A DNA stretch of 64,000 bases from an uncultured Pirellulales bacterium (lineage in GTDB: Bacteria; Planctomycetota; Phycisphaerae; Sedimentisphaerales; Anaerobacaceae), in assembly GCA_964612465.1 (NCBI GenBank), contig CAZTDF010000001.1:2660-66659 (forward strand). The letters run 5' to 3'. The notes under the pieces are model-generated. The model was given only the letters and a program-made list of their open reading frames with translations, was not told the DNA's origin and did no database searches. This document shows, piece after piece, positions 31,990 through 60,871 of the stretch (position 1 is its first letter; each line of letters starts with the position of its first letter). Position numbers and translations under genes: made by a program.

Positions 31990-32000
31990 GGAACCATGAA

Positions 32001-36719: not shown

Positions 36720-36909
36720 AGCTGTTAGTACAACGAAGGCTGTGGCCGGTCCTTTAGTGCCGCGAGCGTTGCCTATAGTATCGATGGCAGTTAGTGCACA
36801 TTCGAATCATGAAATTATAGAACATTCGGGTAACGCAACTGTTATGGTTTATAGAAAGCGATTCATTGAAAGAAAAAAGGAAGATATCCCTATGAAATAT
36901 GCAGGTTAA
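36720..36909 (+). pseudogene. 3' remnant of an EcsC-family gene (paralog of 62398..63279), truncated upstream next to the IS elements
   Basis: The C-terminal about 50 aa of ORF 36454..36909 (LVPRALPIVSMAVSAHSNHEIIEHSGNATVMVYRKRFIERKK) match the C-terminus of the full-length EcsC-like protein (LVPRALPVVSMAVSAHSNHEIIEHSGKAAFMVYRRRFIERKK). The N-terminal 90 aa of the ORF have no counterpart. Confidence 0.6.
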
Positions 36910-43728: not shown

Positions 43729-43734
43729 ACAAAA

Positions 43735-44130: not shown

Positions 44131-44134
44131 GTAG

Positions 44135-44923: not shown

Positions 44924-44934
44924 AGGAGCACAAG

Positions 44935-46194: not shown

Positions 46195-46237
46195 GTAATC
46201 TGCGTATAAATTTTATTGTAGGAGGATTATTTCTGCC

Positions 46238-48158: not shown

Positions 48159-48159
48159 T

Positions 48160-48453
48160 ATGGCGACGGCAGAAAAAAACCAACTTAGTCTGAATGATAA
48201 GCTTTTTACTGTTCGCAGAAAGCCGCTCAAAGAATCACATATCAGGCTCGATAAACAGTTGTGTAAAAAGTGTCTCAATAGAATATGCACATATATATGC
48301 CCGGCAGAGGTTTATATTTGGAGTGAATCCAAAAACGAAATTGATATAAGATATGAAAACTGTCTCGAATGCGGCGCCTGTCGCGTAGCGTGTGACAGCA
48401 TAGAATGGGCAAATCCTGTATGGGGAACAGGGATTGCATATAAGAACAGTTAA
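48160..48453 (+). CDS. fixX: FixX/EtfX ferredoxin-like protein
   Basis: 97 aa. CKKCLNRICTYICPAEV and CLECGACRVACD. Starts 1 nt after fixC. Confidence 0.85.
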   Translation: MATAEKNQLSLNDKLFTVRRKPLKESHIRLDKQLCKKCLNRICTYICPAEVYIWSESKNEIDIRYENCLECGACRVACDSIEWANPVWGTGIAYKNS

Positions 48454-49412: not shown

Positions 49413-50408
49413 TTGAGGGTTGATAAAAAACAGGTCGGTAAAAGTTCGAAGCGATACTACTGGTTGGCTTTTGTTATCGGCGGGATGACGGCTGCTTTAA
49501 TGGGTTGTTTAGTATATTCGTACGTAACCAAAGGTAACCACAGTCTTTTGAGTAGTGCTGTCGGTAATCCCAAGGCGGATGAAGCGAACGTTCGGACTGA
49601 CCCGACGGAGGAGAAGTCTGTTTCGCCATCCGCTTTTCTCGGAGTAGAGATTATGTCTGTGAATGCGGTTATTGCTGAGCAGTTTGGCCTGTCGAATCCG
49701 TGCGGTGTTCTTGTAAACAGCGTTGTTGACGGCTCACCAGCTCAAGAGTCGGGACTTCGAAGAAGTGATGTTATTCTATCCCTGAATAGCATTGCAGTTG
49801 AGGACGTAAACAGCTTCAGAAGTATTATGAGCACTCTAAATCCCGGTGACAATGTGAAAATTGTGTACATAAGAAACAGGCAAAAAGATACAGTCTATGC
49901 CACATTAGCCGACTCATCCGCCGTTCTGAATGTCGCGAAAGATACAAGTGGTTCTGACTGGGGTGTATTGCTGTCTGTTCTCAATTCGGATTTGCGCAGT
50001 TCGCTGCGTATTCCGGCCAATATCGATGGGATTGTGATTCTGTCGGTAACACCAGGTGGCCTGGCGGATCAGGCTGGTTTGCTGCCCGGCGATGTGATTA
50101 CCGGGATTAACAATACGCCAATTGCAGATATGGGCGACTTCTTCGGTGCATTGTCGTCAGACAAAGACGACAAAGTACTTCTGGATGTTTACAGTCAGGG
50201 CACATTACGTTATGTGGCGTTGGATTCATCCGGTGTCGTCACAGCGGTTGCCAGTACACAGACAAGTCTGCTGGACAGAATACTTTCGGCATTTACTGAC
50301 AACGATAACGTCATACTTACCGAACATACAAATGAAGAGGATGATTATGAAAAGCCGGTATGCAAACGGCTCGAGGAATCAGGGGAACGTTATGAAGATG
50401 AAGACTGA
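49413..50408 (+). CDS. Membrane-anchored double-PDZ protein (the PDZ half of a split HtrA; MamP/MamE-C-terminal-like but without heme motifs)
   Basis: TTG start, TM helix YYWLAFVIGGMTAALMGCLVY. PDZ1: GVLVNSVVDGSPAQESGLRRSDVILSLN. PDZ2: GIVILSVTPGGLADQAGLLPGDVITGIN. No CXXCH. Confidence 0.75.
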   Translation: MRVDKKQVGKSSKRYYWLAFVIGGMTAALMGCLVYSYVTKGNHSLLSSAVGNPKADEANVRTDPTEEKSVSPSAFLGVEIMSVNAVIAEQFGLSNPCGVLVNSVVDGSPAQESGLRRSDVILSLNSIAVEDVNSFRSIMSTLNPGDNVKIVYIRNRQKDTVYATLADSSAVLNVAKDTSGSDWGVLLSVLNSDLRSSLRIPANIDGIVILSVTPGGLADQAGLLPGDVITGINNTPIADMGDFFGALSSDKDDKVLLDVYSQGTLRYVALDSSGVVTAVASTQTSLLDRILSAFTDNDNVILTEHTNEEDDYEKPVCKRLEESGERYEDED

Positions 50409-50423
50409 TAAAAAGGTGTGCAG

Positions 50424-51359
50424 ATGAATTTCAAAAAATGGCTTTCGGAAAATATCTTGTGGGTGCTCGTAGCACTTGTCGTAGTTAACTTTCTCATAGT
50501 GTACTGGGGTACTATCAATCTGGGAATCTATGGCACGCGCAGCTCCCTCCTGAGGTGGGACCTGCTGCAGCGCAAGAAACCGCTCTTACAGGAGCAGACC
50601 ACAGCAGCAAATGTAGAAGTTGATACGCTTACAATGCCGGGTCAGCGTCCGAGTACGGTTGCAAGTAATAATCTTGTATTAACATGTGCGGATGATGATT
50701 TGGCCTCTGCCTTTGCGTCTGTCAGGCCTGCGGTTGTCAATATAACTGCGGACAAGGTAACACAGAGAAGAGGCGGGCCGGCTTTGGCAAGTTCAGTTGC
50801 TTTCGATGACCCGTCCATACAATTCGTTGAAGAGGCATCTCTTGGGTCAGGAATTATCGTTGACCACAGGGGTTATATCGTGACCAATGCTCATGTAGTA
50901 GCCAATGCCACAAGTATCAAGGTTGTAACCTTCAGTTCGGCAAGAGTGGTTTATCCAGCCGTAATCATTCGCAAAGACCTGGAAAATGATATTGCCATTT
51001 TGAAGATCGAACTCGACTCGTCTATGCCTACTGTGATTCTCGGAGACTCCGATATGATAAAAGTGGCTGATATAGTTCTGACCGTAGGCTCGCCTTTCGG
51101 GTTAGAGCAAACCGTTACGGCAGGGATTATAAGCGATGATTCAAGAAACCTTGTCATAGACGGCCAAACCTATGATGATATGATTCAGACAGATGCGGCT
51201 ATTAACAGGGGCAATTCCGGCGGACCGCTTATCAACGTAAAAGGCGAGGTCATAGGCATAAACACAGCCATCTACGCTCCTACCGGCGTATTCACAGGTG
51301 TTGGATTTGCGATTCCTATTAACAAGGTAAAACCAATTGTCAAAGAAACAATCAGGTAA
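50424..51359 (+). CDS. Trypsin-like (HtrA/DegP-type) serine protease domain protein with an intact triad and no PDZ (MamE-N-terminal-like)
   Basis: TM anchor ILWVLVALVVVNFLIVYW. His in YIVTNAHVV, Asp in ENDIAILKI, Ser in NRGNSGGPLIN. GTG 50418 is an alternative start. Confidence 0.85.
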   Translation: MNFKKWLSENILWVLVALVVVNFLIVYWGTINLGIYGTRSSLLRWDLLQRKKPLLQEQTTAANVEVDTLTMPGQRPSTVASNNLVLTCADDDLASAFASVRPAVVNITADKVTQRRGGPALASSVAFDDPSIQFVEEASLGSGIIVDHRGYIVTNAHVVANATSIKVVTFSSARVVYPAVIIRKDLENDIAILKIELDSSMPTVILGDSDMIKVADIVLTVGSPFGLEQTVTAGIISDDSRNLVIDGQTYDDMIQTDAAINRGNSGGPLINVKGEVIGINTAIYAPTGVFTGVGFAIPINKVKPIVKETIR

Positions 51360-51364
51360 AAAAT

Positions 51365-51571
51365 ATGTGGCGAACGATAATAGTTGTAATTGTTGTATTG
51401 ATTATTTTCCTGTTTATTGGCGACAATATGCACACAACACGGGTAAATATGCCTTTCACAAACGGCTTTGAGATAAGAACGGTTTTTCTTTTGGCCTTGA
51501 GCTTTATTGTCGGTTACGGCACGGCGTCCCTCGTAGGTTTTATAAAAAACTCCAAAAATAACAAAAAGTGA
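51365..51571 (+). CDS. Small 2-TM protein with a basic tail (LapA/DUF1049-type; MamL-like by architecture)
   Basis: MWRTIIVVIVVLIIFLFIGDNMHTTRVNMPF...FLLALSFIVGYGTASLVGFIKNSKNNKK. Two TM helices and a Lys-rich C-terminus. Lies between the protease and CDF genes. Confidence 0.55.
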   Translation: MWRTIIVVIVVLIIFLFIGDNMHTTRVNMPFTNGFEIRTVFLLALSFIVGYGTASLVGFIKNSKNNKK

Positions 51572-51582
51572 ATTAATTGCAA

Positions 51583-52455
51583 ATGAGCACAATTAAATTA
51601 TATCCAAATCCTGACGATTCAGTTCAACCATTTCTGGCAGGGCTGCTGGCTAATCTGGCGATTGCCATTCTGAAGTTTGGAATAGCCTTACTGGGCGGCA
51701 GCAGGCTGGTTTTGATGGACGGCCTTTTCTCCTTTATGGCGGCAGTGGCTTTTTTGATTCCATGGCAAGCACAGGTTATAGAAAAAAAGCCTCACGATGA
51801 GAGATACCCGTATGGCTTAGGCAAGGTACTGTTTATAAGTATGGCAGTGATCGGCTTTCTTGGTCTGGTTATTTCTGTTCATATGATTTACTACAGCCTG
51901 GTGGTCATGGCTGGACTACAAATGCATGGTTTATACACCCTGGCGATAATGGTCACGATTATATCTGTAATAACCAACGAGGTTCTTTATCGATATCTTG
52001 CGGAGAAAACCAAAAGTTGCTCAAGTACAGTGTTGGCCATGTCCGGGCGTTACAATCGCATCGGTGCGTGGATTTCGTCTTTTGTCCTGTTATTTTTAAT
52101 TCTTTCTTATCTCGGTGGTGCGTATCTTGAGAGGATTGGTGTCGCAATCATTTCAATCGTTGTGTTTTTTATCAGCCTTCGAATGCTTTTTGTGGGCTTT
52201 AGCGGGATTATGGACAAGGTTCCATCACCCAAAATCCTGGAGCGAATAAGGGTATGCACGCAAAAGGTAAGCGAGGAAAAAGAGATTATAAACGTAAAGG
52301 CCAGGTACGTTGGAACACTGCTGCATATTGATATGTGGATAAGAGTAGATGATGAGCTCAGTATGGAGCAGGCCGATAGAATTGCCCGCCGCGTCAAAGT
52401 ACAGTTAATGGAGAAAATTCCTTTCGCAAGAGAAGTGAATGTTATTATCGCATGA
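51583..52455 (+). CDS. Cation diffusion facilitator (CDF) family protein with a degenerate transport site (MamM-like position)
   Basis: CDF landmarks KKPHDERYPYGLGKV and a C-terminal domain (NVKARYVGTLLHIDMWIRVD). TM2 reads LVLMDGLFSFMAAV and TM5 reads LAMSGRYNRIGAW, so the usual HxxxD/[HD]xxxD pairs are missing. TTG 51577 is an alternative start. Confidence 0.7.
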   Translation: MSTIKLYPNPDDSVQPFLAGLLANLAIAILKFGIALLGGSRLVLMDGLFSFMAAVAFLIPWQAQVIEKKPHDERYPYGLGKVLFISMAVIGFLGLVISVHMIYYSLVVMAGLQMHGLYTLAIMVTIISVITNEVLYRYLAEKTKSCSSTVLAMSGRYNRIGAWISSFVLLFLILSYLGGAYLERIGVAIISIVVFFISLRMLFVGFSGIMDKVPSPKILERIRVCTQKVSEEKEIINVKARYVGTLLHIDMWIRVDDELSMEQADRIARRVKVQLMEKIPFAREVNVIIA

Positions 52456-52934
52456 TAACGACTAAGAAAAAAGTTTTTATTTTAGTAGTTGTTTTGGCTT
52501 TAGCTGTCTTATTAATAGCTGGAAGATTGGTAGTATGCGCCAGGACTGCAGGGGTGGCCCAATCTGCTGACAGTTTTGTTTTTAACTTGCCCAATGAGGC
52601 CGGTTTCTACAATATTACCGTCGTTGAATTGAAGACCAGGATAGACAACAAATCCGATAAGAATTTTATAGTCGTCGATATCAGAGATAACGCATCTTAT
52701 GCCCAGGGTCATATACCCGGGGCGATAAACATACCTTTAAATGAACTGGGCTACCGCGTATTCAGTCTGGATAAAACAAAGGACATAATCGTGTATTGCT
52801 TTACCGGCGTAACAAGCCAGGTTGCATGCCAGATACTTGTAAATGCCGGGTTTAAAGATGTGTATAACGTGATAGGCGGAATAAAAGCGTGGAATTATGC
52901 TGTTGAAACAAGCGATGGCAGAGTAGATATTTAA
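52452..52934 (+). CDS. Membrane-anchored rhodanese-domain protein (sulfurtransferase-like)
   Basis: N-terminal TM helix VFILVVVLALAVLLIA. Rhodanese strings VVDIRDNASYAQGHIPGAINIP and active-site loop IIVYCFTGVTSQVA. ATGA overlap with the preceding CDF gene. Confidence 0.8.
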   Translation: MITTKKKVFILVVVLALAVLLIAGRLVVCARTAGVAQSADSFVFNLPNEAGFYNITVVELKTRIDNKSDKNFIVVDIRDNASYAQGHIPGAINIPLNELGYRVFSLDKTKDIIVYCFTGVTSQVACQILVNAGFKDVYNVIGGIKAWNYAVETSDGRVDI

Positions 52935-52970
52935 GAAAAATGAAGAAAAATTTAGTAGAAAGGAGCAAAA

Positions 52971-53168
52971 ATGTTGCACATTGTTGTAGGAATCATCGCA
53001 ATCGTGATTGGACTGTGGGGGATAATGGGCAACTGGTATATGTTCAAAGATATACTGGTTACTATCGTGCCGCTGGCAGTGCTTTTATTTGGAATAGTGG
53101 CAGTATTAGCCGGTATTCGCAAAATGAAAGCAAACTTGGCTGCCAAAGAGAAAAGTGAGGAGGCATAA
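52971..53168 (+). CDS. Small 2-TM protein, MamI-like
   Basis: Strong RBS AAAGGAG 5 nt upstream. MLHIVVGIIAIVIGLWGIMGNWYMFKDILVTIVPLAVLLFGIVAVLAGIRKMK.... The length, hairpin topology and IGLWG...W...VP...G pattern match my recollection of MamI. Sits directly upstream of the MamA-like gene. Confidence 0.55.
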   Translation: MLHIVVGIIAIVIGLWGIMGNWYMFKDILVTIVPLAVLLFGIVAVLAGIRKMKANLAAKEKSEEA

Positions 53169-53171
53169 AAG

Positions 53172-53834
53172 ATGACAAAGAAGAGCGAAACGAAAGAGCC
53201 CAAAAAGGATCAGGCGGTGCCGCTGACCCTTCGGACGCAGAGTTTTTTCGGCAAACTCAGAGGGTGCCTTGATGGTCTTGTTAATGGCTACTGTAATTTA
53301 ACACATATTGAAGCTGTTGAGGCAAAGGAGCTGGTCTTCAAAAAAGCTGCTGCATTGATGGAGCGTGGTCAGTACGGAAAGGCCATTGACCACTACAACA
53401 AATTGATTGGCATGGGTAAAGAAGAAGCGAATATTTATTACAACCTCGGTATCTGTTGTGAGCGGGAAGGTATGGATGAGGAGGCACAGGAGGCTTATAA
53501 GAAGGCATCTGAGATGGACAAATCCCATACGGATGCTGTCTATAGATTAGGACTGTTGGCCATAAAAAACGATGATTCTGAGGCGGCAGTTAAATATCTC
53601 AGTTCTCTTGCCCGCAAGGATAAAACGTCGTTCGACATTATGTATAACCTCGGTGTTGCCTATGACAAGCTCAAGAATTATGAAAAAGCGATAGAGAGCC
53701 TTATCAAGGCGACAAAAATTGAACCAAACTACTCCAAGGTTCACAAACGACTTGGTTACACCTATGAGGCAATGGGTAAGCGTGAAGAAGCTATGGAATG
53801 TTTCAAAAAGGCTATGGAGCTTGAAGAGATTTAG
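53172..53834 (+). CDS. mamA: TPR protein, MamA-like (220 aa)
   Basis: Five or more TPR units. The C-terminal stretch YNLGVAYDKLKNYEKAIESLIKATKIEPNYSKVHKRLGYTYEAMGKREEAMECFKKAMELEE aligns closely with the remembered Magnetospirillum MamA C-terminus (FRLGVALDNLGRFDEAIDSFKIALGLRPNEGKVHRAIAFSYEQMGRHEEALPHFKKANELDE). Its size equals MamA (about 217 aa). Confidence 0.7.
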   Translation: MTKKSETKEPKKDQAVPLTLRTQSFFGKLRGCLDGLVNGYCNLTHIEAVEAKELVFKKAAALMERGQYGKAIDHYNKLIGMGKEEANIYYNLGICCEREGMDEEAQEAYKKASEMDKSHTDAVYRLGLLAIKNDDSEAAVKYLSSLARKDKTSFDIMYNLGVAYDKLKNYEKAIESLIKATKIEPNYSKVHKRLGYTYEAMGKREEAMECFKKAMELEEI

Positions 53835-53845
53835 AAAGGTTCTTT

Positions 53846-54616
53846 ATGGCGATTCCCTTTAGAAAATCAGCCAGCGAAAAACGTCAGGAAAAGGTGCGAG
53901 TGGTCTTAGGTTCAGAGCATTTTCAGAAGAAGCGGTGGCTGCATTTATTTGGCAGGTTTATTGCTGACTATTACATGCCCATTACCATAACGGTACTGAC
54001 GGTAGCTTGTATATATGCTCATATATACTTTTACAACACATTTACCATGATGAAACAGCAGATAGACAATCGGTTAGCGCAGATAGAAGCCGGGCTTCAG
54101 ATGAGAGAAAATATTGTTACCGGCCTGACGGACGTGGTGAAAGGGTTCGTAGCCCATGAAGAGGACATATTCACATCCGCGATAGAGACAAGGAAAGATT
54201 CCATGACCGTCTCAAATGATTTGAAGAAACTGATCGAGGGCGCAAAGCAATTTGCCGGAAACGAATTTTCGCCGACTGGCTTAACAAGGCTTATGGCTGT
54301 GGCGGAGAATTACCCGCAATTAGTCTCAAGCCAGCCGTACAAAGAGCTCGTTGTTCAAATTGCGAAAGTGGAAAGCCAGATTTATGACAAAAGGCTCGAG
54401 TACAGTGACGTCATGAACATTTATAACACCCAACTGGCCACTTTTCCCGGCAATATTTTCGGGAAGATTCTGCGTTTCCAAAAACAGCCGTACTATAGCT
54501 GGGAAAATGAGGCTGAATGGGTGTTTGAAGCAAATTCACAGTTAGCTAAACCACCAGCAAATGTGGAGTCCGAGGGCATTGGCAAGAAATTAGAAGTTGA
54601 GGCTGATTCTAAATAA
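53846..54616 (+). CDS. mamQ: LemA-family membrane protein, MamQ-like
   Basis: N-terminal TM helix YYMPITITVLTVACIYAHIYF, then LemA-type helices (QIDNRLAQIEAGLQMRENIVTGLTDVVKGFVAHEEDIFTSAIETR). Located between the MamA-like and MamB-like genes, as in mamA-mamQ-(R)-mamB synteny. Confidence 0.7.
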   Translation: MAIPFRKSASEKRQEKVRVVLGSEHFQKKRWLHLFGRFIADYYMPITITVLTVACIYAHIYFYNTFTMMKQQIDNRLAQIEAGLQMRENIVTGLTDVVKGFVAHEEDIFTSAIETRKDSMTVSNDLKKLIEGAKQFAGNEFSPTGLTRLMAVAENYPQLVSSQPYKELVVQIAKVESQIYDKRLEYSDVMNIYNTQLATFPGNIFGKILRFQKQPYYSWENEAEWVFEANSQLAKPPANVESEGIGKKLEVEADSK

Positions 54617-54762
54617 AGGCAGCCTGAGTAAACAAAATAGAAAGTGATGTACCCTTGAAGGGTAATAAAATCCCGCGAGCGGAATTGTAAATTGTTGTAA
54701 AGTACCTTATCCGCGAACGAATGGGGGAATTCAATTTGGAGCACCATATAAAGGTCTGATCT

Positions 54763-55653
54763 GTGGCGATAGTGTGTAAACAATGTAATTGGTGTGTCAA
54801 GCATGTTGGCGGTTTGAATCTGTTTGGCAATATTCTTCTGCTTGCCATAAAGCTTTTAGGTGGAATATTCGGCAGAAGCCAGGCATTGATTGCCGATGCC
54901 TTGCATTCTCTAGGTGATGTTGTTGTGGCACTTATGTTACTGGTTAGCTTGAAGGTATCTTCTGTTCCACCGGATGAGGATCATCACTGGGGCCATGGCA
55001 ATATTGAGTATATCACCTCGGTCATAATAGGTGTATTGCTTATCTGTGCGGCCATTATGATTTCCATATCCGCGATATTTACTATCGTCACAGGAAGGAT
55101 GGATGATCCGGGCATTCTGGCGGTATGGGCGGCTTTGATATCTATTATTGTCAACGGAATTTTATGCAAACAGGGTATTTGTGTCGGCGAACAAATAAAT
55201 TCGCCCGTGATGATAGCAAACGCCCGGGAGAAAAGGTCAGATGCTTACACTTCTCTTGCCGCTCTGATAGGTGTTTTCGGTGCAAAGATGGGGTTTATAT
55301 TCTTAGATCCTGTTGCTGCTATTGTTGTTGGTTTTATGATTGCCAAATTCGGATTAGATACGCTTCTTGAAGGGGTCAAAGGCATATCCGACCGGTCTTT
55401 TGACAAAGAGACCCTTGCCAGCGTGAAAAGACTGGTCTTAAAGAAGGAAAGTATAAAAGATATAGGCCGATTAAGAGCCAGGCAAATCGGCCAGAAAAAT
55501 TGGATCGATCTTGAAGCGATTTTCGCTCCTGAAGTGAAAGTCTCGGAAGTAAGAACTACAATCGCAAGTCTTAGAAAAGACATAATGGAGCGATTCGAGG
55601 GGATAGCTGACGTGGTGATCATATCCCGTGCGTCAAAGCCGGAACTAAAGTAA
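54763..55653 (+). CDS. mamB: CDF transporter, MamB-like, copy 1
   Basis: GTG start. N-terminal CKQCNWC. TM2 ALIADALHSLGDVV. Loop PPDEDHHWGHGNIEYITS. TM5 CVGEQINSPVMIANAREKRSDAYTS. These are collinear with the remembered MamB strings ALVADSLHSGADVV, KPADERYPFGYGNIQYISS and CVGNENNSPAIIANAWDNRSDAISS. Confidence 0.75.
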   Translation: MAIVCKQCNWCVKHVGGLNLFGNILLLAIKLLGGIFGRSQALIADALHSLGDVVVALMLLVSLKVSSVPPDEDHHWGHGNIEYITSVIIGVLLICAAIMISISAIFTIVTGRMDDPGILAVWAALISIIVNGILCKQGICVGEQINSPVMIANAREKRSDAYTSLAALIGVFGAKMGFIFLDPVAAIVVGFMIAKFGLDTLLEGVKGISDRSFDKETLASVKRLVLKKESIKDIGRLRARQIGQKNWIDLEAIFAPEVKVSEVRTTIASLRKDIMERFEGIADVVIISRASKPELK

Positions 55654-55692
55654 ATACAGTTATCATACTTATCACATAACGAATTTAAAACT

Positions 55693-56595
55693 ATGGCAGT
55701 TGTTTGTAAAAGATGTTACTGGTGTGCCAAGCATGTCGGAGGGCTAAACTTTTGGGGCAATCTCGCCCTTCTGGTCGTAAAGCTGTTGGGCGGCATATTC
55801 GGCAGAAGCCAGGCTCTAATCGCCGATGCTGTTCATTCTCTAAGCGACGTTATCGTATCGATATTGCTTATAATCAGCTTAAAGGTCTCTTCGACGCCGC
55901 CGGACGAAGATCATCCATGGGGCCATGGTAATGTAGAATTTATCGTATCAGCCATATTTGGGGTGTTGCTTGTTTGTGCGGCTGTGGCTATTACCGCAGT
56001 GTCGATTACCTCGATTATTCAGGGAAATGTATACAATACAAGTATTTTGGCTGTGTGGGCGGCGGTCATATCCGTTGTCGCTAATGATATAATGTTCAGA
56101 CATTCCTTTTGTGTAGGCCAGAAGGTGAATTCTCCTGCAATGATAGCAAATGCCTTGGAGAACAGGGCCGATGTGTGGTCGTCGCTGGCAGTATTAGCAG
56201 GTGTTTTTGGTGCAAGGATTGGGTTTCCGGTTCTTGACCCCATTGCTGCCGTTATTGTAGGTTTTATGATTGCTAAAAATGGGATAGAAACATTGGTTTT
56301 AGGAATTAAAGGCATGACTGACCGGTCTTTTGACAAGGGAATGCTTGCCCAGGTAAAAAAAATAGTCCTGGAAGAAGTCGCCATAAAAGATGTAAGCAGG
56401 CTGCGTTCCAGACAGATCGGACAAAAAAACTGGATAGACATTGAGGCAATGTTTGATCCACAGATAAAAGTTTCAGAGGTAAAAAAGATAATCGAGAGAA
56501 TTAAGAAAAACATAATGGAAAAATTCGAAAAGATCGGGGATGTGGTAATTGTGTCCCGTGTATCAGAACCCCAGTTAAAGTTAAAGGAAATATAA
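55693..56595 (+). CDS. mamB: CDF transporter, MamB-like, copy 2 (tandem paralog)
   Basis: N-terminal CKRCYWC. ALIADAVHSLSDVI. PPDEDHPWGHGNVEFIVS. CVGQKVNSPAMIANALENRADVWSS. Roughly two-thirds identical to copy 1 by eye. Confidence 0.75.
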   Translation: MAVVCKRCYWCAKHVGGLNFWGNLALLVVKLLGGIFGRSQALIADAVHSLSDVIVSILLIISLKVSSTPPDEDHPWGHGNVEFIVSAIFGVLLVCAAVAITAVSITSIIQGNVYNTSILAVWAAVISVVANDIMFRHSFCVGQKVNSPAMIANALENRADVWSSLAVLAGVFGARIGFPVLDPIAAVIVGFMIAKNGIETLVLGIKGMTDRSFDKGMLAQVKKIVLEEVAIKDVSRLRSRQIGQKNWIDIEAMFDPQIKVSEVKKIIERIKKNIMEKFEKIGDVVIVSRVSEPQLKLKEI

Positions 56596-56597
56596 CT

Positions 56598-59500
56598 ATG
56601 ATATGGGCAAAGAATAAGGATAAAAAGAAAAAGTTAAAAACAATAACTGATGACATGACGCCCAGAGAAAAAGAACAGGTGCTGGAATATAAGAAGCGGG
56701 TAATCAGGCGATGGGCCATAGTGGTAGGGCTTCTGGCTCTTGCAACCTTTGGCTTCCTTTTTATGACGCTGCTTGACCATGTGATTAAAGGTACCCCTGA
56801 CGGTGGGCTTGAGATAAACTACAATAAGCTGGATGCAAAGCTCGCCTGGCTCGGTGCTGAGATTCGGGATTTAGACGCTACTATCAGTAGTGCACTTGGT
56901 TTAACCTCAAGCGAGGGGGTCCTCGTAAACAATGTAACATCAGGTTCACCGGCAGATCAGGTGGGTTTGCAGAGAGGCGACGTTATTATTTCCCTTGATG
57001 GAAGCAAGGTAGTCGATACCTTACAGATACAGGACCGGCTTCGGAAACTTAAACCTGGAGATACTGTCAAGCTTGTTTTAGATAAAGTAAATGGCGGCAA
57101 GAAAAATGTTTATGTTACACTTGGCGTCAAACCGGACGATGATGCTGCAACAACTGATACAAAGATTAAAAAAGTAGCAGGAACCACCGATACTGCTGTT
57201 AATCCGGTATTGTCCACGCATTGGGGAATATCGGTGTCGCCGCTGACAGATGATGCAAGGGTTGCATTCAAAATACCCGAGAAAGTTCAAGGCGTTCTTG
57301 TTGTTGCAGTCGTGCGGGGCAGTCTTGCCGATTCGCAGGGCATTAAGGTTGGAGATGTTATTGTAAGTATCAACCAGGTTTCTACGCCTAACCTGCAGGT
57401 TTTTTATCAGGCTCTCAAAGATGTTGAGAGTGTTTTGATGGATGTTTATTCATCTTCTGACGATAAAAGATTCTTTGTAACGTTTCCTGACGAAGGTGAT
57501 TCACCGCCACAAGTTGTGATGATGAGTTTTGATGAAAAAGTGGCCGAAACCCATCGTATTATCATTCCTTCTGACATGGCAGGCTTGAACGGTCAGGTTT
57601 ATTCCCGGTTTGCATCTGCTCCATATTTTATTCTGTATGATTTCAATACAAATCAGCCGACCGTAATCACTAATCCGTATGCATTACAGGTTCGCGGTGC
57701 GGGGATACCCTTAGCGCAAATGCTGATAGAACAAAAAATTGATGCCGTAATAGTAGGCGGAATAGGTCCGCAGGTATTTGATATCTTTTATCTTGCCAAA
57801 GTTAAAATCTATGGACCAGTTACAGGCAGTGTGCGAACCGCGATAACTAATTATCAGTTAGGCAAATTGCCTGAATTAAAGGAAGCTAACCTTGCCGGAT
57901 ACGGCAATTCATCGACAGCCACAATTCCGACAGGCGGCTCACCTAGGACAGAGACGGATGATACCGCTGATGATGAAGAAAGTGATGGTCTGTCCGGTCA
58001 GCCTTCGGTTATTCCACCTAAAGGCAAACCCCTCGAACTTACTGCCCAGGGCGATGCCCGTGCAAGCAGGCCGGAAACCTGCGTCTGCCCCAGATGTGGC
58101 ACAGAAGTAACTCATCCGGCAAGTACTGCCTGTGCTGATATGGTATGTCCCATTTGCGGTTCTCAGCTTATGACAGCATCGCCTGGAACTGATTCAATTA
58201 CCGGCACGGATATGACAACCCAGCTTCCAGCGACACAGATACCAACCCAGTTGAGACCTATTTCCTTAGCGGCAGGCAGTACAGTAGCACCGACAAGCCC
58301 ACCCAGCAGAATAGCAGCGATACCAACAGCCGCCAATCTATGGGCAATAAGCAATCAGCCCTCAACTACACCGCCTACAACAACACCAGTACAACAAACG
58401 GCGGGTTCTTCAACAACGGTTTGTATATGTCCTCTTGATGGCACAACAGTGACCCATCCGGTTGGTATTCCATGTTCTGCTCTTCAGTGTCCAGTTTGCG
58501 GCGGCAGAATGGTAAGTGCCAGCAGTGCAATCATTGATGGCAGCCAGATATCCAAAACTGCCGGGGTGGTAGTTGGCGGCAAACCCGATGATGTCCCACC
58601 GGTTCAGCAGGTATTTTACATACTTCCTGTTGGCGGCAAACCGGATGACATACCGCCGTCAATGGGTGGCTCGGCACAAACCGTTTCACTTGTTACGATT
58701 GGCGGCAAACCGGACGATGTACCGCCTGTTCAGCAGACATTCTACTTACTGCCAGTAGCCGGCGGACCTCCTGAGGGTATGGGCAGCGCTCCGACTGATA
58801 CCGGCAGTGCTCCGGCTGATGTGGGAGGCTCATCGCAGAGTGCTCGTTCGACAACATGTATATGTCCTGTGGATGGCACAACGGTAACCCATCCGATAGG
58901 TGTTCCCTGTTCGCAGCTTAGCTGTCCTATATGTGGTTCTCGTATGGTTAATGCCGCCCCCGGCGGTGATACTGCCGGCGGTGCAATTCAAACAGGCGGC
59001 AAACCCGATGATGTTCCACCGGTTCAGCAGGCATTTTACTTACTTCCTGTCGGCGGCAAACCGGATGACGTACCGCCTGTCCAGCAGGCCTTTTTCTTAG
59101 TGCCGGTATCGAGCCAGCCTGATGGTGTGCCGCCTTTAGGCCAGAGCACACAGTCGGTAACTCAAGCTCAAAGGACGTCGCTTGTTACGATAGCCGGCGG
59201 ACCTCCGGAGGGTATGGGTATGGGAGGGGCAGCTGATACAGGCACTGCCGTAGATGGGCCGGCACAGGGTGGTGGTCAGTCTGGCTCCGGTGCGGCCCAG
59301 ACTGGTCGCTCAGATTTATGTGTGTGCCCAATGTGTGGCGTAACCGTAACGCATCCAATATCTGTTCCGTGTTCCTCACTTACATGTCCCGTCTGCGGCT
59401 CTCGATTGGTTAACCAAACCCCTGGAGGCACAAGCGGCAATACAGCCGGCAGCAGTTTAGTACCGACAGCGGCAATTACAGTTGCTGCGACATCGAACAT

Positions 59501-59963
59501 AGTTCATGTAGCGGGGAGTTCTAAAAAATTGGTTATCCCATCCACAGGCAGAACTCTTAAATCTAATATTGCGCCGTTACTCGACGATGCTCGTTATTTC
59601 TTAATGTTCGGATTAGGAACATATGAAGCGGTACCCAATCCATATTACAGGGACAAAAGGGCAAGTGGAGATGAAATCGGTCAGTTCATAGTGGCTGAAG
59701 GCGGTTCGATTGTTATTTGCAATAACGTAAGTGCCACAGCACTCAAAGCACTCAAGGACCTGAAAGTCAAGGTATACACCGGCTTTGTGGGCACAGTTCA
59801 GCAGGCTCTTGACATATACAATGATGGCAGGATCAAGGATTCATCGACAGGGAGTGTTCTTGATGATGAAGAAGAACATGGCGGCGGTGGGCCGCCTTCA
59901 TCAAAAACCAAGTCTTCTAAAGAAAAAGACAAAGACAAAGATAATGACACGGAGGTATTTTAG
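56598..59963 (+). CDS. 1121-aa membrane-anchored multidomain protein: TM - PDZ - PDZ - NifX/NifB-type (Nitro_FeMo-Co) domain - four Cys/His knuckle modules interleaved with GGKPDDVPP repeats - second NifX-type domain - acidic/basic tail
   Basis: TM helix WAIVVGLLALATFGFLFMTLL. PDZ: GVLVNNVTSGSPADQVGLQRGDVIISLD and GVLVVAVVRGSLADSQGIKVGDVIVSIN. NifX-like 1: FASAPYFILYDFNTNQPTVITNPY...GAGIPLAQMLIEQKIDAVIVGGIGPQVFDIFYLAKVKIYGPVTGSVRTAITNY. NifX-like 2: LDDARYFLMFGLGTYEAVPNPYY...GDEIGQFIVAEGGSIVICNNVSATALKALKDLKVKVYTGFVGTVQQALDIY. Confidence 0.8.
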   Translation: MIWAKNKDKKKKLKTITDDMTPREKEQVLEYKKRVIRRWAIVVGLLALATFGFLFMTLLDHVIKGTPDGGLEINYNKLDAKLAWLGAEIRDLDATISSALGLTSSEGVLVNNVTSGSPADQVGLQRGDVIISLDGSKVVDTLQIQDRLRKLKPGDTVKLVLDKVNGGKKNVYVTLGVKPDDDAATTDTKIKKVAGTTDTAVNPVLSTHWGISVSPLTDDARVAFKIPEKVQGVLVVAVVRGSLADSQGIKVGDVIVSINQVSTPNLQVFYQALKDVESVLMDVYSSSDDKRFFVTFPDEGDSPPQVVMMSFDEKVAETHRIIIPSDMAGLNGQVYSRFASAPYFILYDFNTNQPTVITNPYALQVRGAGIPLAQMLIEQKIDAVIVGGIGPQVFDIFYLAKVKIYGPVTGSVRTAITNYQLGKLPELKEANLAGYGNSSTATIPTGGSPRTETDDTADDEESDGLSGQPSVIPPKGKPLELTAQGDARASRPETCVCPRCGTEVTHPASTACADMVCPICGSQLMTASPGTDSITGTDMTTQLPATQIPTQLRPISLAAGSTVAPTSPPSRIAAIPTAANLWAISNQPSTTPPTTTPVQQTAGSSTTVCICPLDGTTVTHPVGIPCSALQCPVCGGRMVSASSAIIDGSQISKTAGVVVGGKPDDVPPVQQVFYILPVGGKPDDIPPSMGGSAQTVSLVTIGGKPDDVPPVQQTFYLLPVAGGPPEGMGSAPTDTGSAPADVGGSSQSARSTTCICPVDGTTVTHPIGVPCSQLSCPICGSRMVNAAPGGDTAGGAIQTGGKPDDVPPVQQAFYLLPVGGKPDDVPPVQQAFFLVPVSSQPDGVPPLGQSTQSVTQAQRTSLVTIAGGPPEGMGMGGAADTGTAVDGPAQGGGQSGSGAAQTGRSDLCVCPMCGVTVTHPISVPCSSLTCPVCGSRLVNQTPGGTSGNTAGSSLVPTAAITVAATSNIVHVAGSSKKLVIPSTGRTLKSNIAPLLDDARYFLMFGLGTYEAVPNPYYRDKRASGDEIGQFIVAEGGSIVICNNVSATALKALKDLKVKVYTGFVGTVQQALDIYNDGRIKDSSTGSVLDDEEEHGGGGPPSSKTKSSKEKDKDKDNDTEVF
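58575..59109 (+). repeat. In-frame tandem/interspersed coding repeats encoding GGKPDD[VI]PP[VS]QQ.F[YF][LI][LV]PV (six copies)
   Basis: The DNA unit ggcggcaaacc(c/g)ga(t/c)ga(t/c)gt(a/c/t)cc(a/g)cc(g/t)gt(t/c)cagcag recurs at about 58575, 58632, 58701, 58995, 59052 and, degenerate, at 59110. Read directly. Confidence 0.8.
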
Positions 59964-60871
59964 TGACGGAAAGTAAGCTCGAAAAACTTATAAAAACAAA
60001 GAAACACTCAAAAGCTAATGTGATTATGATCATAATAGTTGTCGGATTTATTATTCTCATAGTGTGCCAATCGGCTTTTATGGGTTTCACAATGAAGGAA
60101 CAAACCAGAACGACTACTGCCCCTCAGGATGGTTCTATCCGAAGCAGCAACATTGCACTGACGGCTTCGAATATACAGCTTGTTGCGTGCACGGATGACG
60201 ACCTTACAGATGCGGTTTCTGCAGTAAAGAGAGCAGTTGTGAATATAGACGTAGCCCCGGCTGATGTTGGTTCTGCGAATAGAAGGGGTGAGCCTGCTTT
60301 GAGTTTTGATATGCCCTCGACAGCAGCCCTGCAAACAAACGAAGAAACTCTTGGTTCAGGTGTTATCGTTGATGCACGTGGGTATATTCTTACCTGCTAC
60401 CACTTAATAAAAGATTGCCCGAACGTTAATGTGAGTGTTTTTAGTTCTGTGCGTCAGATATACAAAGCCCAGGTTGTTGATGTCGATATTACAAATGACC
60501 TTGCAATCCTGAAGATAGAATCGGACAGGCCTTTGCCGGCAGTAAAACTGGCAAACTCCGATCTGGTCAAGATAACCGATGCGATTCTTGCTATCGGTTC
60601 GCCGTTTGGTTTCGAGCACACAGTAACCGCTGGGATAGTCAGCGATAACAAGCGAAGTATCGTCATTGGTAATACTGTTTACAAAGATATGTTACAGACG
60701 GATGCGGCAATAAACCGCGGTAGTGCCGGCGGTGCTTTGATAAATGGTGCCAGCGAAATCATTGGTATTAATACCGCCATCGCGTCTCCATCGGGATATT
60801 TTTCAGGCGTCAGTTTTGCCATACCAATAAACAAGGCCAGGCCGCTGTTGCTGAAGGCAATTGATGGCTGA
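59963..60871 (+). CDS. Trypsin-like (HtrA-fold) pseudoprotease: His and Asp retained, nucleophile Ser replaced by Ala (MamO-like logic)
   Basis: TM anchor VIMIIIVVGFIILIVCQSAF. YILTCYHLI (His) and TNDLAILKI (Asp). DAAINRGSAGGALIN aligns column for column with DAAINRGNSGGPLIN of the active paralog at 50424. GTG start overlaps the upstream stop by 1 nt. Confidence 0.8.
   Translation: MTESKLEKLIKTKKHSKANVIMIIIVVGFIILIVCQSAFMGFTMKEQTRTTTAPQDGSIRSSNIALTASNIQLVACTDDDLTDAVSAVKRAVVNIDVAPADVGSANRRGEPALSFDMPSTAALQTNEETLGSGVIVDARGYILTCYHLIKDCPNVNVSVFSSVRQIYKAQVVDVDITNDLAILKIESDRPLPAVKLANSDLVKITDAILAIGSPFGFEHTVTAGIVSDNKRSIVIGNTVYKDMLQTDAAINRGSAGGALINGASEIIGINTAIASPSGYFSGVSFAIPINKARPLLLKAIDG

What the first reader, a model, noticed from the sequence alone, without database searches (positions are those of the whole stretch)
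58080..59410. Four copies of a C.CP.[CD]G..VTHP.....C....CP.CG.[RQ][ML] module interleaved with GGKPDDVPPVQQ.FYLLPV repeats
Four modules read directly:
- CVCPRCGTEVTHPASTACADMVCPICGSQLM (about 58080)
- CICPLDGTTVTHPVGIPCSALQCPVCGGRMV (about 58422)
- CICPVDGTTVTHPIGVPCSQLSCPICGSRMV (about 58856)
- CVCPMCGVTVTHPISVPCSSLTCPVCGSRLV (about 59318)

Each has 5-6 Cys plus an invariant His. In two modules the third Cys is replaced by Asp.

Six near-identical GGKPDD[VI]PP units lie between the modules and are conserved even at the DNA level. This suggests recent internal duplication or concerted evolution. Repeated metal-ligand modules on a flexible proline-rich spacer would suit multivalent metal or mineral-surface binding.
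Basis: seen in the sequence. Interest (0 to 1): 0.7.

Follow-up and report, generated by a model that had tools for sequence, protein, structure and literature searches.

The report
Cysteine metal-binding modules in magnetosome protein
The four cysteine-rich repeats are real, conserved metal-binding "beads" on a disordered string inside a magnetosome protein (the MamT*/MamP-like gene of a putative greigite cluster in a Planctomycetota bacterium), and they belong to a widespread, unnamed family always found with NifX-like metal-cluster carriers, which makes them the leading candidates for the iron or iron-sulfur handling centres of this type of magnetosome.

Summary
Four copies of C-x-C-P-x-[C/D]-x5-H-x5-C-x4-C-P-x-C-G lie at nt 58080, 58422, 58857 and 59319. 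All are in one 1121-aa ORF (56598-59963, +).

There are five exact GGKPDD[VI]PP units plus one degenerate unit, not six.

The repeat number is not an assembly artefact. Seven independent public assemblies give the same 1121-aa protein, and gap-free orthologues keep four modules with the same Cys/Asp pattern.

The ORF has a TM anchor, two PDZ domains, a NifX-like domain, four modules and a second NifX-like domain. It sits between mamB and an HtrA-type protease gene in a magnetosome gene cluster of the putative greigite type. Relatives are annotated "MamT-Star".

The modules are the best-conserved part of the protein. They are predicted to fold as zinc-ribbon/rubredoxin-like domains, and the linkers are predicted disordered.

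The module is not private to this protein. A profile finds 1,728 protein clusters, mostly 45-110 aa stand-alone proteins with no Pfam or NCBIfam family. In 6 of 7 sampled contexts these lie next to NifX-like genes.

Best reading: these are lumen-exposed Fe or Fe-S binding centres that work with the ORP/MTH1175-type NifX-like domains, in a cluster with no magnetochrome haem in the part seen. Metal identity and chemistry are inferred, not shown.

The parts
56598..59963 (+). 1121-aa ORF with the order TM anchor, PDZ, PDZ, NifX-like, four Cys modules, NifX-like. It is the MamT*/MamP-like gene of the magnetosome cluster.
   Evidence: ORF listed. Domains from Pfam and NCBIfam. The exact protein is public, in a 90% cluster of 9 members, 7 of them 1121 aa, named only 'PDZ domain-containing protein'. 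A homologue is named 'MamT-Star'.
56712..56777 (+). Single N-terminal transmembrane anchor (about aa 39-60). The 38 residues before it are K/R-rich.
   Evidence: This is the only hydrophobic 19-mer peak in the protein. The N-terminal 38 aa hold 14 K/R against 6 D/E. An N-in, C-out (lumen/periplasm) topology is inferred from the positive-inside rule.
56850..57425 (+). Two PDZ domains (aa 85-171 and 208-276).
   Evidence: Pfam PDZ, PDZ_2 and PDZ_6 at E about 1e-18. Partial matches to the MamE and MamP PDZ regions, far below the equivalog cut-offs.
57588..57857 (+). NifX-like domain 1 (Nitro_FeMo-Co, aa 331-420), of the ORP/MTH1175 type.
   Evidence: Pfam PF02579, 93.5 bits for both copies. Best solved relatives are TM1816 (1rdu), MTH1175 (1eo1) and ORP (2wfb). 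Arg stands where TM1290 has the His of its HFG motif.
57993..58031 (+). Linker motif SGQPSVIPPKGKP, which follows an acidic stretch and precedes module 1.
   Evidence: This is a family-wide motif ([YL].G.P..IPP.G[KE]) found before the first module in relatives.
58080..58172 (+). Module 1: CVCPRCGTEVTHPASTACADMVCPICGSQLM (all-Cys form).
   Evidence: Its positional orthologues are 79-85% identical at nt level.
58422..58514 (+). Module 2: CICPLDGTTVTHPVGIPCSALQCPVCGGRMV (Asp replaces the third Cys).
   Evidence: Asp is kept at this position in every four-module orthologue. It is 94-97% aa identical to the orthologues. pLDDT is about 90.
58575..58757 (+). Linker units u1-u3. These are GGKPDDVPPVQQVFYILPV, a truncated GGKPDDIPP, and GGKPDDVPPVQQTFYLLPV.
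   Evidence: Predicted disordered. Orthologues have only one unit in this linker.
58857..58949 (+). Module 3: CICPVDGTTVTHPIGVPCSQLSCPICGSRMV (Asp form).
   Evidence: Asp or Cys occurs at this position in the orthologues. pLDDT 83-89.
58995..59135 (+). Linker units u4-u6. These are GGKPDDVPPVQQAFYLLPV, GGKPDDVPPVQQAFFLVPV and the degenerate SSQPDGVPP.
59319..59411 (+). Module 4: CVCPMCGVTVTHPISVPCSSLTCPVCGSRLV (all-Cys form).
   Evidence: It is 87-94% aa identical to the orthologues.
59526..59849 (+). NifX-like domain 2 (about aa 977-1084), followed by an acidic and lysine-rich tail.
   Evidence: Second Pfam stretch. Best solved relative is TM1816 at E 7e-14. The pairing of module and NifX-like domain is conserved across the family.
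59963..60871 (+). Downstream HtrA-type trypsin-like protease gene (MamE-Nter/MamO-like). Its start overlaps the stop codon of the 1121-aa ORF.
   Evidence: NCBIfam. The same neighbour is found in L001, L002 and L004-L007.
49413..56595 (+). Upstream magnetosome genes: MamE-Cter-like PDZ protein, MamE-Nter protease, CDF (MamMB-like), rhodanese, MamI-like 65-aa ORF, MamA, MamQ and two MamB copies.
   Evidence: NCBIfam. Small ORF. Synteny with Planctomycetota loci L006 and L007. The gene order matches the greigite-type mamAB-like operon described in PMC9145555.

Best explanation
The region encodes the lumen-facing metal-centre array of a magnetosome biomineralisation protein.

The protein is anchored by one N-terminal helix. 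Two PDZ domains and an ORP/MTH1175-type NifX-like domain follow. Then come four 31-residue zinc-ribbon/rubredoxin-like modules, each with 6 Cys + 1 His or 5 Cys + Asp + His, strung on disordered Pro/Gly-rich linkers. A second NifX-like domain ends the protein.

The module and the NifX-like domain are an old functional pair. In many anaerobes they are separate neighbouring genes. Here they are fused and, through the membrane anchor, placed on the periplasmic/magnetosome-lumen side.

Proposed mechanism:
- The modules fold around Fe (or small Fe-S units) available in the lumen.
- Together with the NifX-like domains they hold, pass on and possibly oxidise or reduce iron or iron-sulfur species at the growing crystal.
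- This would fill the role that haem 'magnetochrome' domains play in MamP/MamT/FmpB. No magnetochrome is encoded in the part of the cluster seen here.
- The conserved 19-aa linker units are short linear motifs. They are likely docking or cleavage sites for the PDZ/HtrA proteins of the cluster.

Shown here: the existence of the modules, their conservation, the predicted fold, the disorder of the linkers, the cluster context, and the module-NifX linkage.

Inferred: the topology, the identity of the metal, the redox or transfer chemistry, and the role of the linkers.
For: Reality and constraint:
- The four modules occur in one frame only, with 0 of 20,000 shuffles matching.
- Seven independent assemblies give the same 1121-aa protein with 4 modules and 5 units. 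They show 0 amino-acid changes in modules 3 and 4 (0-2 across the span holding modules 1-2 and their linker) against 9-15 changes in the PDZ region.
- Gap-free orthologues L004, L005 and L007 (and L008, cut off by the end of its contig) keep four modules in the Cys/Asp/Asp-or-Cys/Cys order.
- Modules are 77-97% aa identical to orthologues, against 67-69% for the PDZ domains.

Fold:
- AF2 of one module gives pLDDT 89.9.
- The nearest solved folds are all zinc ribbons or rubredoxins: RpoP, rubredoxin B, the adenylate kinase lid, HypA.
- In the 522-aa model the modules score 75-91 and the linkers 23-38, with no secondary structure in the linkers.

Context:
- The gene order is mamE-Cter, mamE-Nter, CDF, rhodanese, mamI, mamA, mamQ, two mamB, this gene, protease, CDF, then a MamC-like gene.
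- The same order is found in Planctomycetota SAG and MAG loci, including the published MTB genome MAG_11118_pl_115 (PMC7449369).
- A KSB1 relative lies between mamB and a protease in a cluster that also has mamI, mamK and feoB.
- Relatives are named 'Magnetosome protein MamT-Star'.

Module-NifX linkage:
- All 32 relatives of the repeat region carry PF02579, except one that ends in a frameshifted reading before its C-terminus.
- An exhaustive profile search finds 1,728 clusters, mostly small stand-alone proteins.
- 6 of 7 sampled stand-alone genes lie within three genes of a NifX-like gene. DUF134, CbiA/ParA-Fer4 ATPases and DUF5320 are also present.
- Two fusions to DUF134 were found.

No competing redox centre was seen:
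- There is no CXXCH motif in any of the 22 genes from 40 to 64 kb, nor in 18 long multi-module relatives.

Literature:
- Truncations removing the NifX-like domains of RS-1 FmpA and FmpB give fewer, smaller and misshapen crystals. Both proteins are enriched on early magnetosomes (PMC4287615, PMC12748827).
- FmpB combines c-type haem magnetochrome domains with a NifX-like domain (PMC3971196). This places such domains on the periplasmic side.
- NifX hands a large Fe-S cluster to cysteines on a flexible segment of NifE (PMC13128457).
Against: - No metal binding, redox activity or localisation was measured.
- The fold is that of generic structural zinc ribbons. The Foldseek E-values are not significant (0.76 or higher) for so short a domain.
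- Both NifX-like domains lack the His that binds the cofactor in NifX/NafY. They may not bind a cluster at all.
- The stand-alone relatives are mostly cytoplasmic. Their function is unknown, so the linkage transfers no known activity.
- The mineral made by this organism is unknown. 'Greigite-type' is a literature inference from gene phylogeny.
- The window ends at 64 kb, so a magnetochrome protein could lie further downstream.
- Whether the genetically studied RS-1 FmpA/FmpB carry this module was not established.
Confidence: 0.5

Rival explanations
1. The modules are purely structural zinc ribbons. They bind Zn only and act as rigid beads or protein-protein contact points in a scaffold. The scaffold organises the PDZ/HtrA proteins of the magnetosome membrane. 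No iron or Fe-S chemistry takes place on the modules.
For: The two CPxCG knuckles and the predicted fold are those of ordinary zinc ribbons. Sub-threshold Pfam hits are all generic zinc-ribbon families. PDZ domains and neighbouring proteases suggest a scaffold or regulatory role.
Against: - Three further residues (the first Cys, the His and the fourth Cys) are invariant in 57 of 57 distinct modules pattern-extracted from the 33 close family proteins. The full seven-residue pattern is also present in 160 of 176 collected family and profile-hit proteins. A four-ligand structural site does not need them.
- The Asp-for-Cys change is conserved by position.
- The constant partner is a metal-cluster carrier fold, not a scaffold domain.
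Confidence: 0.25
2. The protein is a polyprotein-like substrate. The conserved linker units (…FYLLPV|GGKPDD…) are cleavage and PDZ-docking sites for the HtrA-type MamE-like proteases encoded next door. Processing releases single modules, which resemble the free small proteins of other anaerobes, and a module-NifX piece. This is compatible with the main explanation and differs in what the linkers are for.
For: - The 19-aa units are 88-98% identical at nt level between genomes although predicted disordered.
- A related G-G-[KQ]-P-x-x-[IV]-P-P motif recurs up to 14 times in relatives.
- A protease gene overlaps the stop codon.
- Two further PDZ/protease genes lie upstream.
- From established knowledge of MamE in Magnetospirillum, MamE processes MamP, MamO and MamD, and its PDZ domains are peptide-activated.
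- From my own knowledge, HtrA proteases prefer Val/Ile at P1.
Against: No cleavage data exist. Gene calls that start inside modules, such as 'MVREG…' in annotated MamT* or 'MVSG…', are explained by assembly gaps and wrong start choices, not by processing. The motif could equally be a mineral- or membrane-contact element.
Confidence: 0.25
3. The repeat architecture is an assembly artefact (collapse or expansion of repeats), or the gene is a decaying pseudogene.
For: Several metagenomic relatives are broken inside this region by scaffold gaps or frameshifted ends (L002, L003, P0016, P0020). This shows that the region is hard to assemble.
Against: - Seven independent assemblies give the same length and module count.
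- Orthologues from a single-cell genome and several MAGs are intact without gaps.
- Modules are positionally orthologous and under strong constraint.
Confidence: 0.02
4. The cysteines form disulfide bonds in an oxidising extracytoplasmic compartment. The modules are then metal-free, knotted structural domains.
For: The predicted location is extracytoplasmic. There are six cysteines per module.
Against: - Two modules have only five cysteines, with Asp at a conserved ligand position.
- The His is invariant.
- The same module is abundant in cytoplasmic proteins of strict anaerobes.
- The spacing is the classical knuckle spacing of metal sites.
Confidence: 0.04

Closest known systems
MamT* ('MamT-Star') / MamP-like proteins of greigite-type and Desulfobacterota-type magnetosome clusters
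   Same: Same family. The profile of module plus NifX-like domain hits 'Magnetosome protein MamT-Star' of a multicellular magnetotactic prokaryote (E 4e-50). It also hits proteins of Ca. Magnetoglobus and Ca. Magnetomorum. The position after mamB and before the protease gene is the same.
   Different: The annotated MMP entries are short. They start inside a module ('MVREG…') or are partial. The papers I could search do not mention the Cys module. The window protein also carries the PDZ-PDZ-NifX front half and four modules in a single ORF.
RS-1 FmpB (DMR_41100; MCR1-MCR2-PDZ-NitroFeMoCo) and FmpA (DMR_41090; PDZ + NifX-like)
   Same: They are membrane- or signal-anchored magnetosome proteins that combine PDZ and NifX-like domains. 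Loss of the NifX-like part impairs crystal number, size and shape.
   Different: FmpB carries two haem magnetochrome domains. The window protein has none and has four Cys6His modules instead. Whether FmpA or FmpB have the module was not determined.
MamP / magnetochrome proteins of Alphaproteobacteria
   Same: Both have a PDZ domain plus tandem small redox-capable metal centres facing the magnetosome lumen. The position in the mamAB-type operon is the same. Both are proposed to control iron chemistry.
   Different: The metal centre in MamP is a c-type haem (CXXCH), which is absent here. The NCBIfam MamP score is 43 against a cut-off of 300. MamP has no NifX-like domain.
ORP / MTH1175-type NifX-like proteins (TM1816, MTH1175, Desulfovibrio ORP) and their DUF134 / MinD-Fer4 gene clusters
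   Same: Both NifX-like domains of the window protein are most similar to this subgroup. The stand-alone form of the Cys module lives in exactly these gene clusters.
   Different: Those systems are cytoplasmic, of unknown function, and not linked to biomineralisation. Here the pair is fused, multiplied and membrane-anchored inside a magnetosome cluster. No MinD-Fer4 ATPase is nearby.
Rubredoxin and zinc-ribbon domains (e.g. RpoP/Rpo12, LysW, adenylate kinase lid, HypA)
   Same: They share two C-P-x-C-G-type knuckles on a small beta-ribbon. These are the closest solved folds.
   Different: The module has three further invariant ligand-type residues (Cys, His, Cys), a fixed spacing, and a position-specific Asp variant. 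No curated family reaches its threshold.
NifX-to-NifEN hand-over of NifB-co
   Same: A NifX-fold domain holds a large Fe-S cluster by one residue. Cysteines on a flexible neighbouring segment take it over. This is a working analogy for NifX-like domains flanked by flexible Cys modules.
   Different: There are no nif genes here. The cofactor-binding His of NifX is replaced in both domains. This is an analogy only.

Membership tests
Zinc-ribbon / rubredoxin-like fold | Two Cys-x-x-Cys knuckles separated by a short beta-hairpin region | tested here: met
   C-P-x-[C/D] and C-P-x-C are 16 residues apart in every one of 57 distinct modules pattern-extracted from the close family proteins.
Zinc-ribbon / rubredoxin-like fold | Three-dimensional similarity to solved zinc ribbons | tested here: inconclusive
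   AF2 gives pLDDT 89.9. All top Foldseek matches are zinc ribbons or rubredoxins with TM 0.55-0.75. E-values are 0.76 or higher because the domain is only 38 residues.
Zinc-ribbon / rubredoxin-like fold | Bound Zn or Fe | not testable with these tools
   Needs metal analysis of the purified module.
Any curated zinc-ribbon or Cys-rich family (Pfam-A, NCBIfam) | Score at or above the family's curated cut-off | tested here: not met
   Best Pfam hits are DNA_ligase_ZBD at 14.9 bits (cut-off 25.8) and Zn_Ribbon_TF at 13.3 (cut-off 29). For the stand-alone relatives scanned, generic zinc-ribbon hits were below or only marginally at their cut-offs and no family matched across them. No CDGSH or DUF5320 hit was found for the window protein.
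MamP (NF040965) / magnetochrome proteins | PDZ domain | tested here: met
   Two PDZ domains.
MamP (NF040965) / magnetochrome proteins | Tandem magnetochrome CXXCH haem motifs | tested here: not met
   No CXXCH in the protein or in any gene from 40 to 64 kb.
MamP (NF040965) / magnetochrome proteins | Equivalog score | tested here: not met
   43.4 bits against a cut-off of 300. MamE scores 62.9 against 800.
MamT* / MamP-like / Fmp-class PDZ-NifX magnetosome proteins | Homology to proteins annotated as such | tested here: met
   P0379 'MamT-Star' at E 3.9e-50, the Ca. Magnetoglobus protein at 6e-50, and the Ca. Magnetomorum HK-1 'magnetosome protein' at 3e-49.
MamT* / MamP-like / Fmp-class PDZ-NifX magnetosome proteins | Location in a magnetosome gene cluster, after mamB and before a trypsin-like protease gene | tested here: met
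   Window. Loci L001, L002 and L004-L008. Gene order as described in PMC9145555.
MamT* / MamP-like / Fmp-class PDZ-NifX magnetosome proteins | Role in biomineralisation | not testable with these tools
   Genetic evidence exists only for RS-1 FmpA and FmpB.
NifX / NafY FeMo-cofactor carriers | Nitro_FeMo-Co (PF02579) fold | tested here: met
   93.5 bits against a cut-off of 26.3, in two stretches.
NifX / NafY FeMo-cofactor carriers | Cofactor-binding histidine (H35 of NifX; the H of the H-F-G motif) | tested here: not met
   Domain 1 has S-R-F where TM1290 has H-F-G. Domain 2 has L-L-D (alignments). The role of the His is taken from PMC13128457. Equating the two positions rests on my reading of the alignment.
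NifX / NafY FeMo-cofactor carriers | nif gene neighbourhood | tested here: not met
   No nif genes in the window.
ORP / MTH1175-type NifX-like proteins | Closest sequence relatives among solved structures | tested here: met
   TM1816 at 1e-12 and 7e-14, MTH1175 at 4e-10, ORP at 6e-8.
ORP / MTH1175-type NifX-like proteins | Neighbourhood with MinD/ParA-Fer4 ATPases and DUF134 | tested here: not met
   Absent around the window gene. Present around the stand-alone module genes.

The most novel reading that the evidence does not exclude
The Cys6His ribbon is a new kind of small iron-sulfur (or iron-thiolate) cofactor module that works as the obligate partner of ORP/MTH1175-type NifX-like domains. 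In magnetosomes of the greigite type, this pair has been exported and multiplied. There it would assemble or carry Fe-S units and electrons directly to the growing Fe3S4 crystal. That would be a protein-bound route from Fe-S cluster to mineral, replacing the haem-based magnetochrome system. The Asp-containing modules would provide labile hand-over sites.
Probability: 0.15. Interest if true: 0.85.

Novelty: new variant of a known kind. Interest (0 to 1): 0.6.

Why it matters
How magnetotactic bacteria make greigite is unknown. It is also unknown what replaces the haem 'magnetochrome' redox domains in clusters that lack them.

This protein concentrates 22 of its 23 cysteines in four invariant modules next to metal-cluster-carrier folds. 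It sits at the position in the operon where MamP/MamT sit elsewhere. That gives a concrete, small (31-residue) and easily expressed target for metal-binding and redox tests.

Separately, the module defines a large unnamed family. It has about 1,700 clusters at 50% identity, across bacteria and archaea. It is tied to the long-unexplained DUF134 / NifX-like / MinD-ferredoxin gene clusters of anaerobes. Learning its cofactor would inform both problems.

Tried and rejected
- Tandem Repeats Finder found no array in 57.5-60 kb, because the units are interspersed.
- Pfam and NCBIfam scans of the protein, of a single module and of ten stand-alone relatives gave no match to a specific curated family, only generic zinc-ribbon hits at or below cut-off.
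- My recollection that the small proteins are 'DUF5320' is only partly right. A few carry a weak precomputed PF17253 hit, and DUF5320 genes are neighbours, but the window protein does not match.
- The first half of the module (C-x-C…C…H) resembles the CDGSH/mitoNEET motif. This was considered, but no Pfam hit supports it.
- A PDB sequence search with the module profile found only generic ribbons.
- A genome scan with an alignment failed for lack of a conserved stretch.
- A profile of 38 columns was too short for the word-indexed search. It was extended to 42 columns.
- I tried to learn whether RS-1 FmpA/FmpB carry the module. Neither the cluster look-ups nor the last homology search returned an RS-1 protein, so this stays open.
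- The 522-aa AF2 model predicted the NifX-like domain poorly (pLDDT 40-56) and gives no information on module-NifX contacts.
- No tRNA or Rfam family was found in the window.
- Concerted evolution of the modules is rejected.


Full report
**What is there**

The coordinates given lie inside one long ORF, 56598-59963 on the + strand, encoding 1121 aa. The strict pattern C-x-C-P-x-[C/D]-x5-H-x5-C-x4-C-P-x-C occurs four times in that ORF. The modules start at aa 495, 609, 754 and 908, which is nt 58080, 58422, 58857 and 59319. The pattern occurs nowhere else in the six-frame translation of the window. None of 20,000 shuffles of the protein contains it.

Modules 2 and 3 have Asp for the third Cys. 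Twenty-two of the 23 cysteines of the protein are in the modules.

Five exact GGKPDD[VI]PP units are present, plus one degenerate unit (SSQPDGVPP). Four of them have the full 19-aa form GGKPDDVPPVQQxF[YF][IL][LV]PV. One 83-nt stretch (58575-58657) is 94% identical to another (58995-59077). The modules are only 61-73% identical to each other at the DNA level.

**Not an artefact**

The exact protein is already in public collections. Its 90%-identity cluster has nine members from different sources. Seven of them are 1121 aa. All nine have four modules, and eight have five units. Across these variants there are no amino-acid changes in modules 3 and 4 and 0-2 in the span holding modules 1 and 2, against 9-15 in the PDZ region.

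More distant orthologues come from Planctomycetota MAGs, a single-cell genome and a bin labelled Aegiribacteria. They are uninterrupted and have four modules in the order Cys, Asp, Asp-or-Cys, Cys. The single-cell genome has three modules. A KSB1 relative has three all-Cys modules.

Some metagenomic relatives appear split. In the cases I opened, this was due to a run of N in a linker or to a gene call that started at the Met inside '…G-x-R-M-V…'.

**Age of the repeats**

Each module is closest to the module at the same position in other genomes (75-91% nt). It is more distant from the other modules of its own gene (50-67%). The duplication is therefore old and the copies have become position-specific. 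Concerted evolution of the modules is rejected.

The linker units behave differently:
- Their number per linker varies between orthologues. There are three between modules 2 and 3 here, and one in the others.
- Two units of the window are 93% identical to each other.
- Units are also 88-98% identical between genomes.

So there is some recent copying in this lineage, on top of very strong constraint.

**Architecture and context**

Pfam finds two PDZ domains (aa 85-276) and two Nitro_FeMo-Co (NifX-like) domains (aa 331-420 and about 977-1084). It finds nothing for the modules. A single hydrophobic segment at about aa 39-60 follows a K/R-rich N-terminus. This predicts that the bulk of the protein is outside the cytoplasm (inference).

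The neighbours, in order, are:
- a MamE-Cter-like PDZ protein;
- a MamE-Nter protease;
- a MamB/M-like CDF transporter;
- a rhodanese;
- a MamI-like small ORF;
- MamA;
- MamQ;
- two MamB copies;
- this gene;
- a second trypsin-like protease, whose start overlaps this gene's stop codon;
- a CDF transporter;
- an unassigned 293-aa ORF;
- a MamC-like protein.

The same order is kept in Planctomycetota loci. One of them is the published magnetotactic MAG_11118_pl_115. [quoted passage not shown] A profile of module plus NifX-like domain retrieves proteins named 'Magnetosome protein MamT-Star' and relatives from Ca. Magnetoglobus and Ca. Magnetomorum.

The gene is thus the Planctomycetota counterpart of MamT*/MamP-like. 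Planctomycetes clusters are regarded in the literature as putative greigite clusters. The mineral made by this organism is not known.

**The module as a family**

Across 57 distinct modules pattern-extracted from the 33 close family proteins, several positions are invariant: the first, second, fourth, fifth and sixth Cys, the His, and the Gly after the last Cys. The third ligand position is Cys in 46 and Asp in 11. The spacing is fixed.

AF2 predicts a small ribbon with pLDDT 89.9. Its nearest solved folds are RpoP/Rpo12, rubredoxin B, the adenylate-kinase lid and HypA. In a 522-aa model the three modules score 75-91. Every linker, including the GGKPDD units, scores 23-38 and has no secondary structure. 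This is a beads-on-a-string arrangement.

No Pfam or NCBIfam family, and no specific PDB relative, matches the module.

An exhaustive profile search of 1.84 billion representative proteins gave 1,728 hits at E <= 0.001. The best hits are long proteins with the order TM, PDZ, NifX-like, modules, NifX-like. They have 3-5 modules and no CXXCH, and they include proteins from Desulfamplus. Most other hits are proteins of 45-110 aa. These have a Gly/Arg-rich N-terminus and one module at the C-terminal end, and they are annotated 'hypothetical'.

I opened seven stand-alone genes from unrelated organisms. Six lie within three genes of a NifX-like gene. They are usually accompanied by DUF134, CbiA/ParA-ferredoxin ATPases and DUF5320. 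Two proteins fuse DUF134 to the module.

The two NifX-like domains of the window protein are most similar to that same non-nif subgroup: TM1816, MTH1175 and Desulfovibrio ORP. The module and the NifX-like fold are therefore linked twice, as conserved neighbours and as fusions. I consider this the strongest functional clue.

**How it most likely works**

The following points are shown:
- The module is a conserved, probably metal-binding small domain with seven ligand-type residues.
- It is multiplied on disordered linkers.
- It is fused to metal-cluster-carrier folds.
- It is encoded in the core operon of a magnetosome cluster in which no haem magnetochrome motif is present, in the 24 kb seen.

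From the literature:
- NifX-like domains of RS-1 FmpA and FmpB matter for crystal number, size and shape. These proteins are on early magnetosomes.
- FmpB combines c-type haem domains with a NifX-like domain, which places such domains on the periplasmic side.
- NifX passes an Fe-S cluster to cysteines on a flexible segment of its partner.

The following steps are inferred:
- The modules are exported unfolded with the signal-anchor and fold around Fe, or small Fe-S units, in the iron-rich lumen.
- The four knuckle ligands form a rubredoxin-like site.
- The extra Cys, His and Cys form a second, incomplete site suited to sharing or passing a metal or cluster with the NifX-like domains.
- The Asp variants at fixed positions give sites of different lability.
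- The array supplies the iron or electron handling that magnetochromes supply in MamP.

The conserved linker units are probably short linear motifs for the PDZ/HtrA proteins of the cluster. Processing at …LPV|GG… is a reasonable but untested idea.

I put about 0.5 on the general statement that these are Fe or Fe-S handling centres acting with the NifX-like domains in biomineralisation. I put much less on any specific chemistry.

**Weak points**

- Nothing was measured.
- The fold is that of ordinary structural zinc ribbons.
- Both NifX-like domains lack the cofactor-binding His of NifX/NafY.
- The function of the stand-alone family and of ORP-type proteins is itself unknown.
- The window ends at 64 kb.
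- I could not establish whether the genetically studied RS-1 proteins carry the module.

**Novelty**

The gene and its cluster are already in public databases. The cluster type is published. The gene is labelled only 'PDZ domain-containing protein', 'NifX family protein' or 'MamT-Star'.

In the papers I could search, nothing describes the Cys module, its multiplicity, its Asp variants or its link to the anaerobe NifX-like clusters. Subscription papers such as the original mad-gene study were not searchable.

I rate it a new variant of a known kind. It is a MamP/MamT-position magnetosome protein whose haem centres are replaced by a distinct, unnamed Cys6His ribbon paired with ORP-type domains.

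Noticed in passing
window 3501-31989 (+): Eleven tandem paralogous genes of 805-843 aa. The two I checked are duplicated MacB_PCD + FtsX permeases. Two ABC ATPase genes (2621-3412, 23680-24381), a HlyD-type adaptor (1338-2618) and an outer-membrane efflux protein (32001-33680) are also present. This is an unusually long array of one transporter type.
   Followed up: partly
window about 32000-36400: G+C drops from 0.50-0.62 to 0.42-0.46. The drop is exactly where a DDE transposase (33980-35176, +) and an rve-type integrase (35275-36354, -) lie. This looks like the edge of a horizontally acquired magnetosome island.
   Followed up: partly
window 52452-52934 (+): A rhodanese (sulfur-transfer) domain gene lies inside the mamAB-like operon, between the CDF gene and mamI/mamA. 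It is conserved at the same place (76-77% identity) in Planctomycetota loci L006 and L007. A sulfur-transfer protein in a putative iron-sulfide cluster deserves a look.
   Followed up: partly
window 54763-55653 and 55693-56595 (+): Two tandem MamB-like CDF transporter genes lie directly upstream of the finding. A third and a fourth CDF gene are at 51577-52455 and 60883-62070. The tandem MamB pair is kept in L002, L004, L006, L007 and L008.
   Followed up: partly
window 41605-48453 (+): Several genes lie between the island edge and the mam genes. They are a 707-aa coiled-coil protein (SMC/Rad50-like matches; a weak match near its C-terminus), electron-transfer flavoprotein beta and alpha (the alpha with a ferredoxin domain), an excisionase-type HTH protein with 12 Cys, a FixC-like FAD oxidoreductase, and a 97-aa FixX-like ferredoxin ORF (48160-48453). 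This is a possible electron-supply module for the cluster.
   Followed up: no
window 36906-38372 (-): A 488-aa protein fuses an HTH_17 domain, a Pol-beta-type nucleotidyltransferase and a HEPN domain, resembling a fused toxin-antitoxin pair.
   Followed up: no
relatives P0036, P0038, P0041 (not in the window); window aa 466-478 and the GGKPDD units: There is a family-wide linker motif G-G-[KQ]-P-x-x-[IV]-P-P-[MV]-G-Q. It is present in up to 14 tandem copies of a 14-aa period in P0036. A second motif, Y-K-G-[ML]-P-x-x-I-P-P-[QK]-G-[KE]-Y-D-P, precedes the first module in many relatives. The window's GGKPDDVPPVQQ units are the local version.
   Followed up: partly
proteins P0061, P0063, P0075, P0081, P0084, P0093 (profile hits, not in the window): The same Cys6His module also occurs inside 600-900 aa proteins with no PDZ or NifX signature. 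Their N-termini look unrelated to magnetosome proteins. It also occurs in secreted small proteins with two or three modules behind a signal peptide (P0047, P0052, P0055).
   Followed up: no
public annotations P0379, P0380 (MamT-Star of gMMP-15; Ca. Magnetoglobus 'dinitrogenase iron-molybdenum cofactor biosynthesis protein'): Both annotated proteins begin 'MVREGAV…', which is the tail of a Cys module (…C-G-T-L-M-V-R-E-G). The deposited gene models probably start too late and cut off the module.
   Followed up: no
window 1-64000: There is no tRNA gene and no Rfam family at gathering threshold anywhere in the 64 kb.
   Followed up: yes
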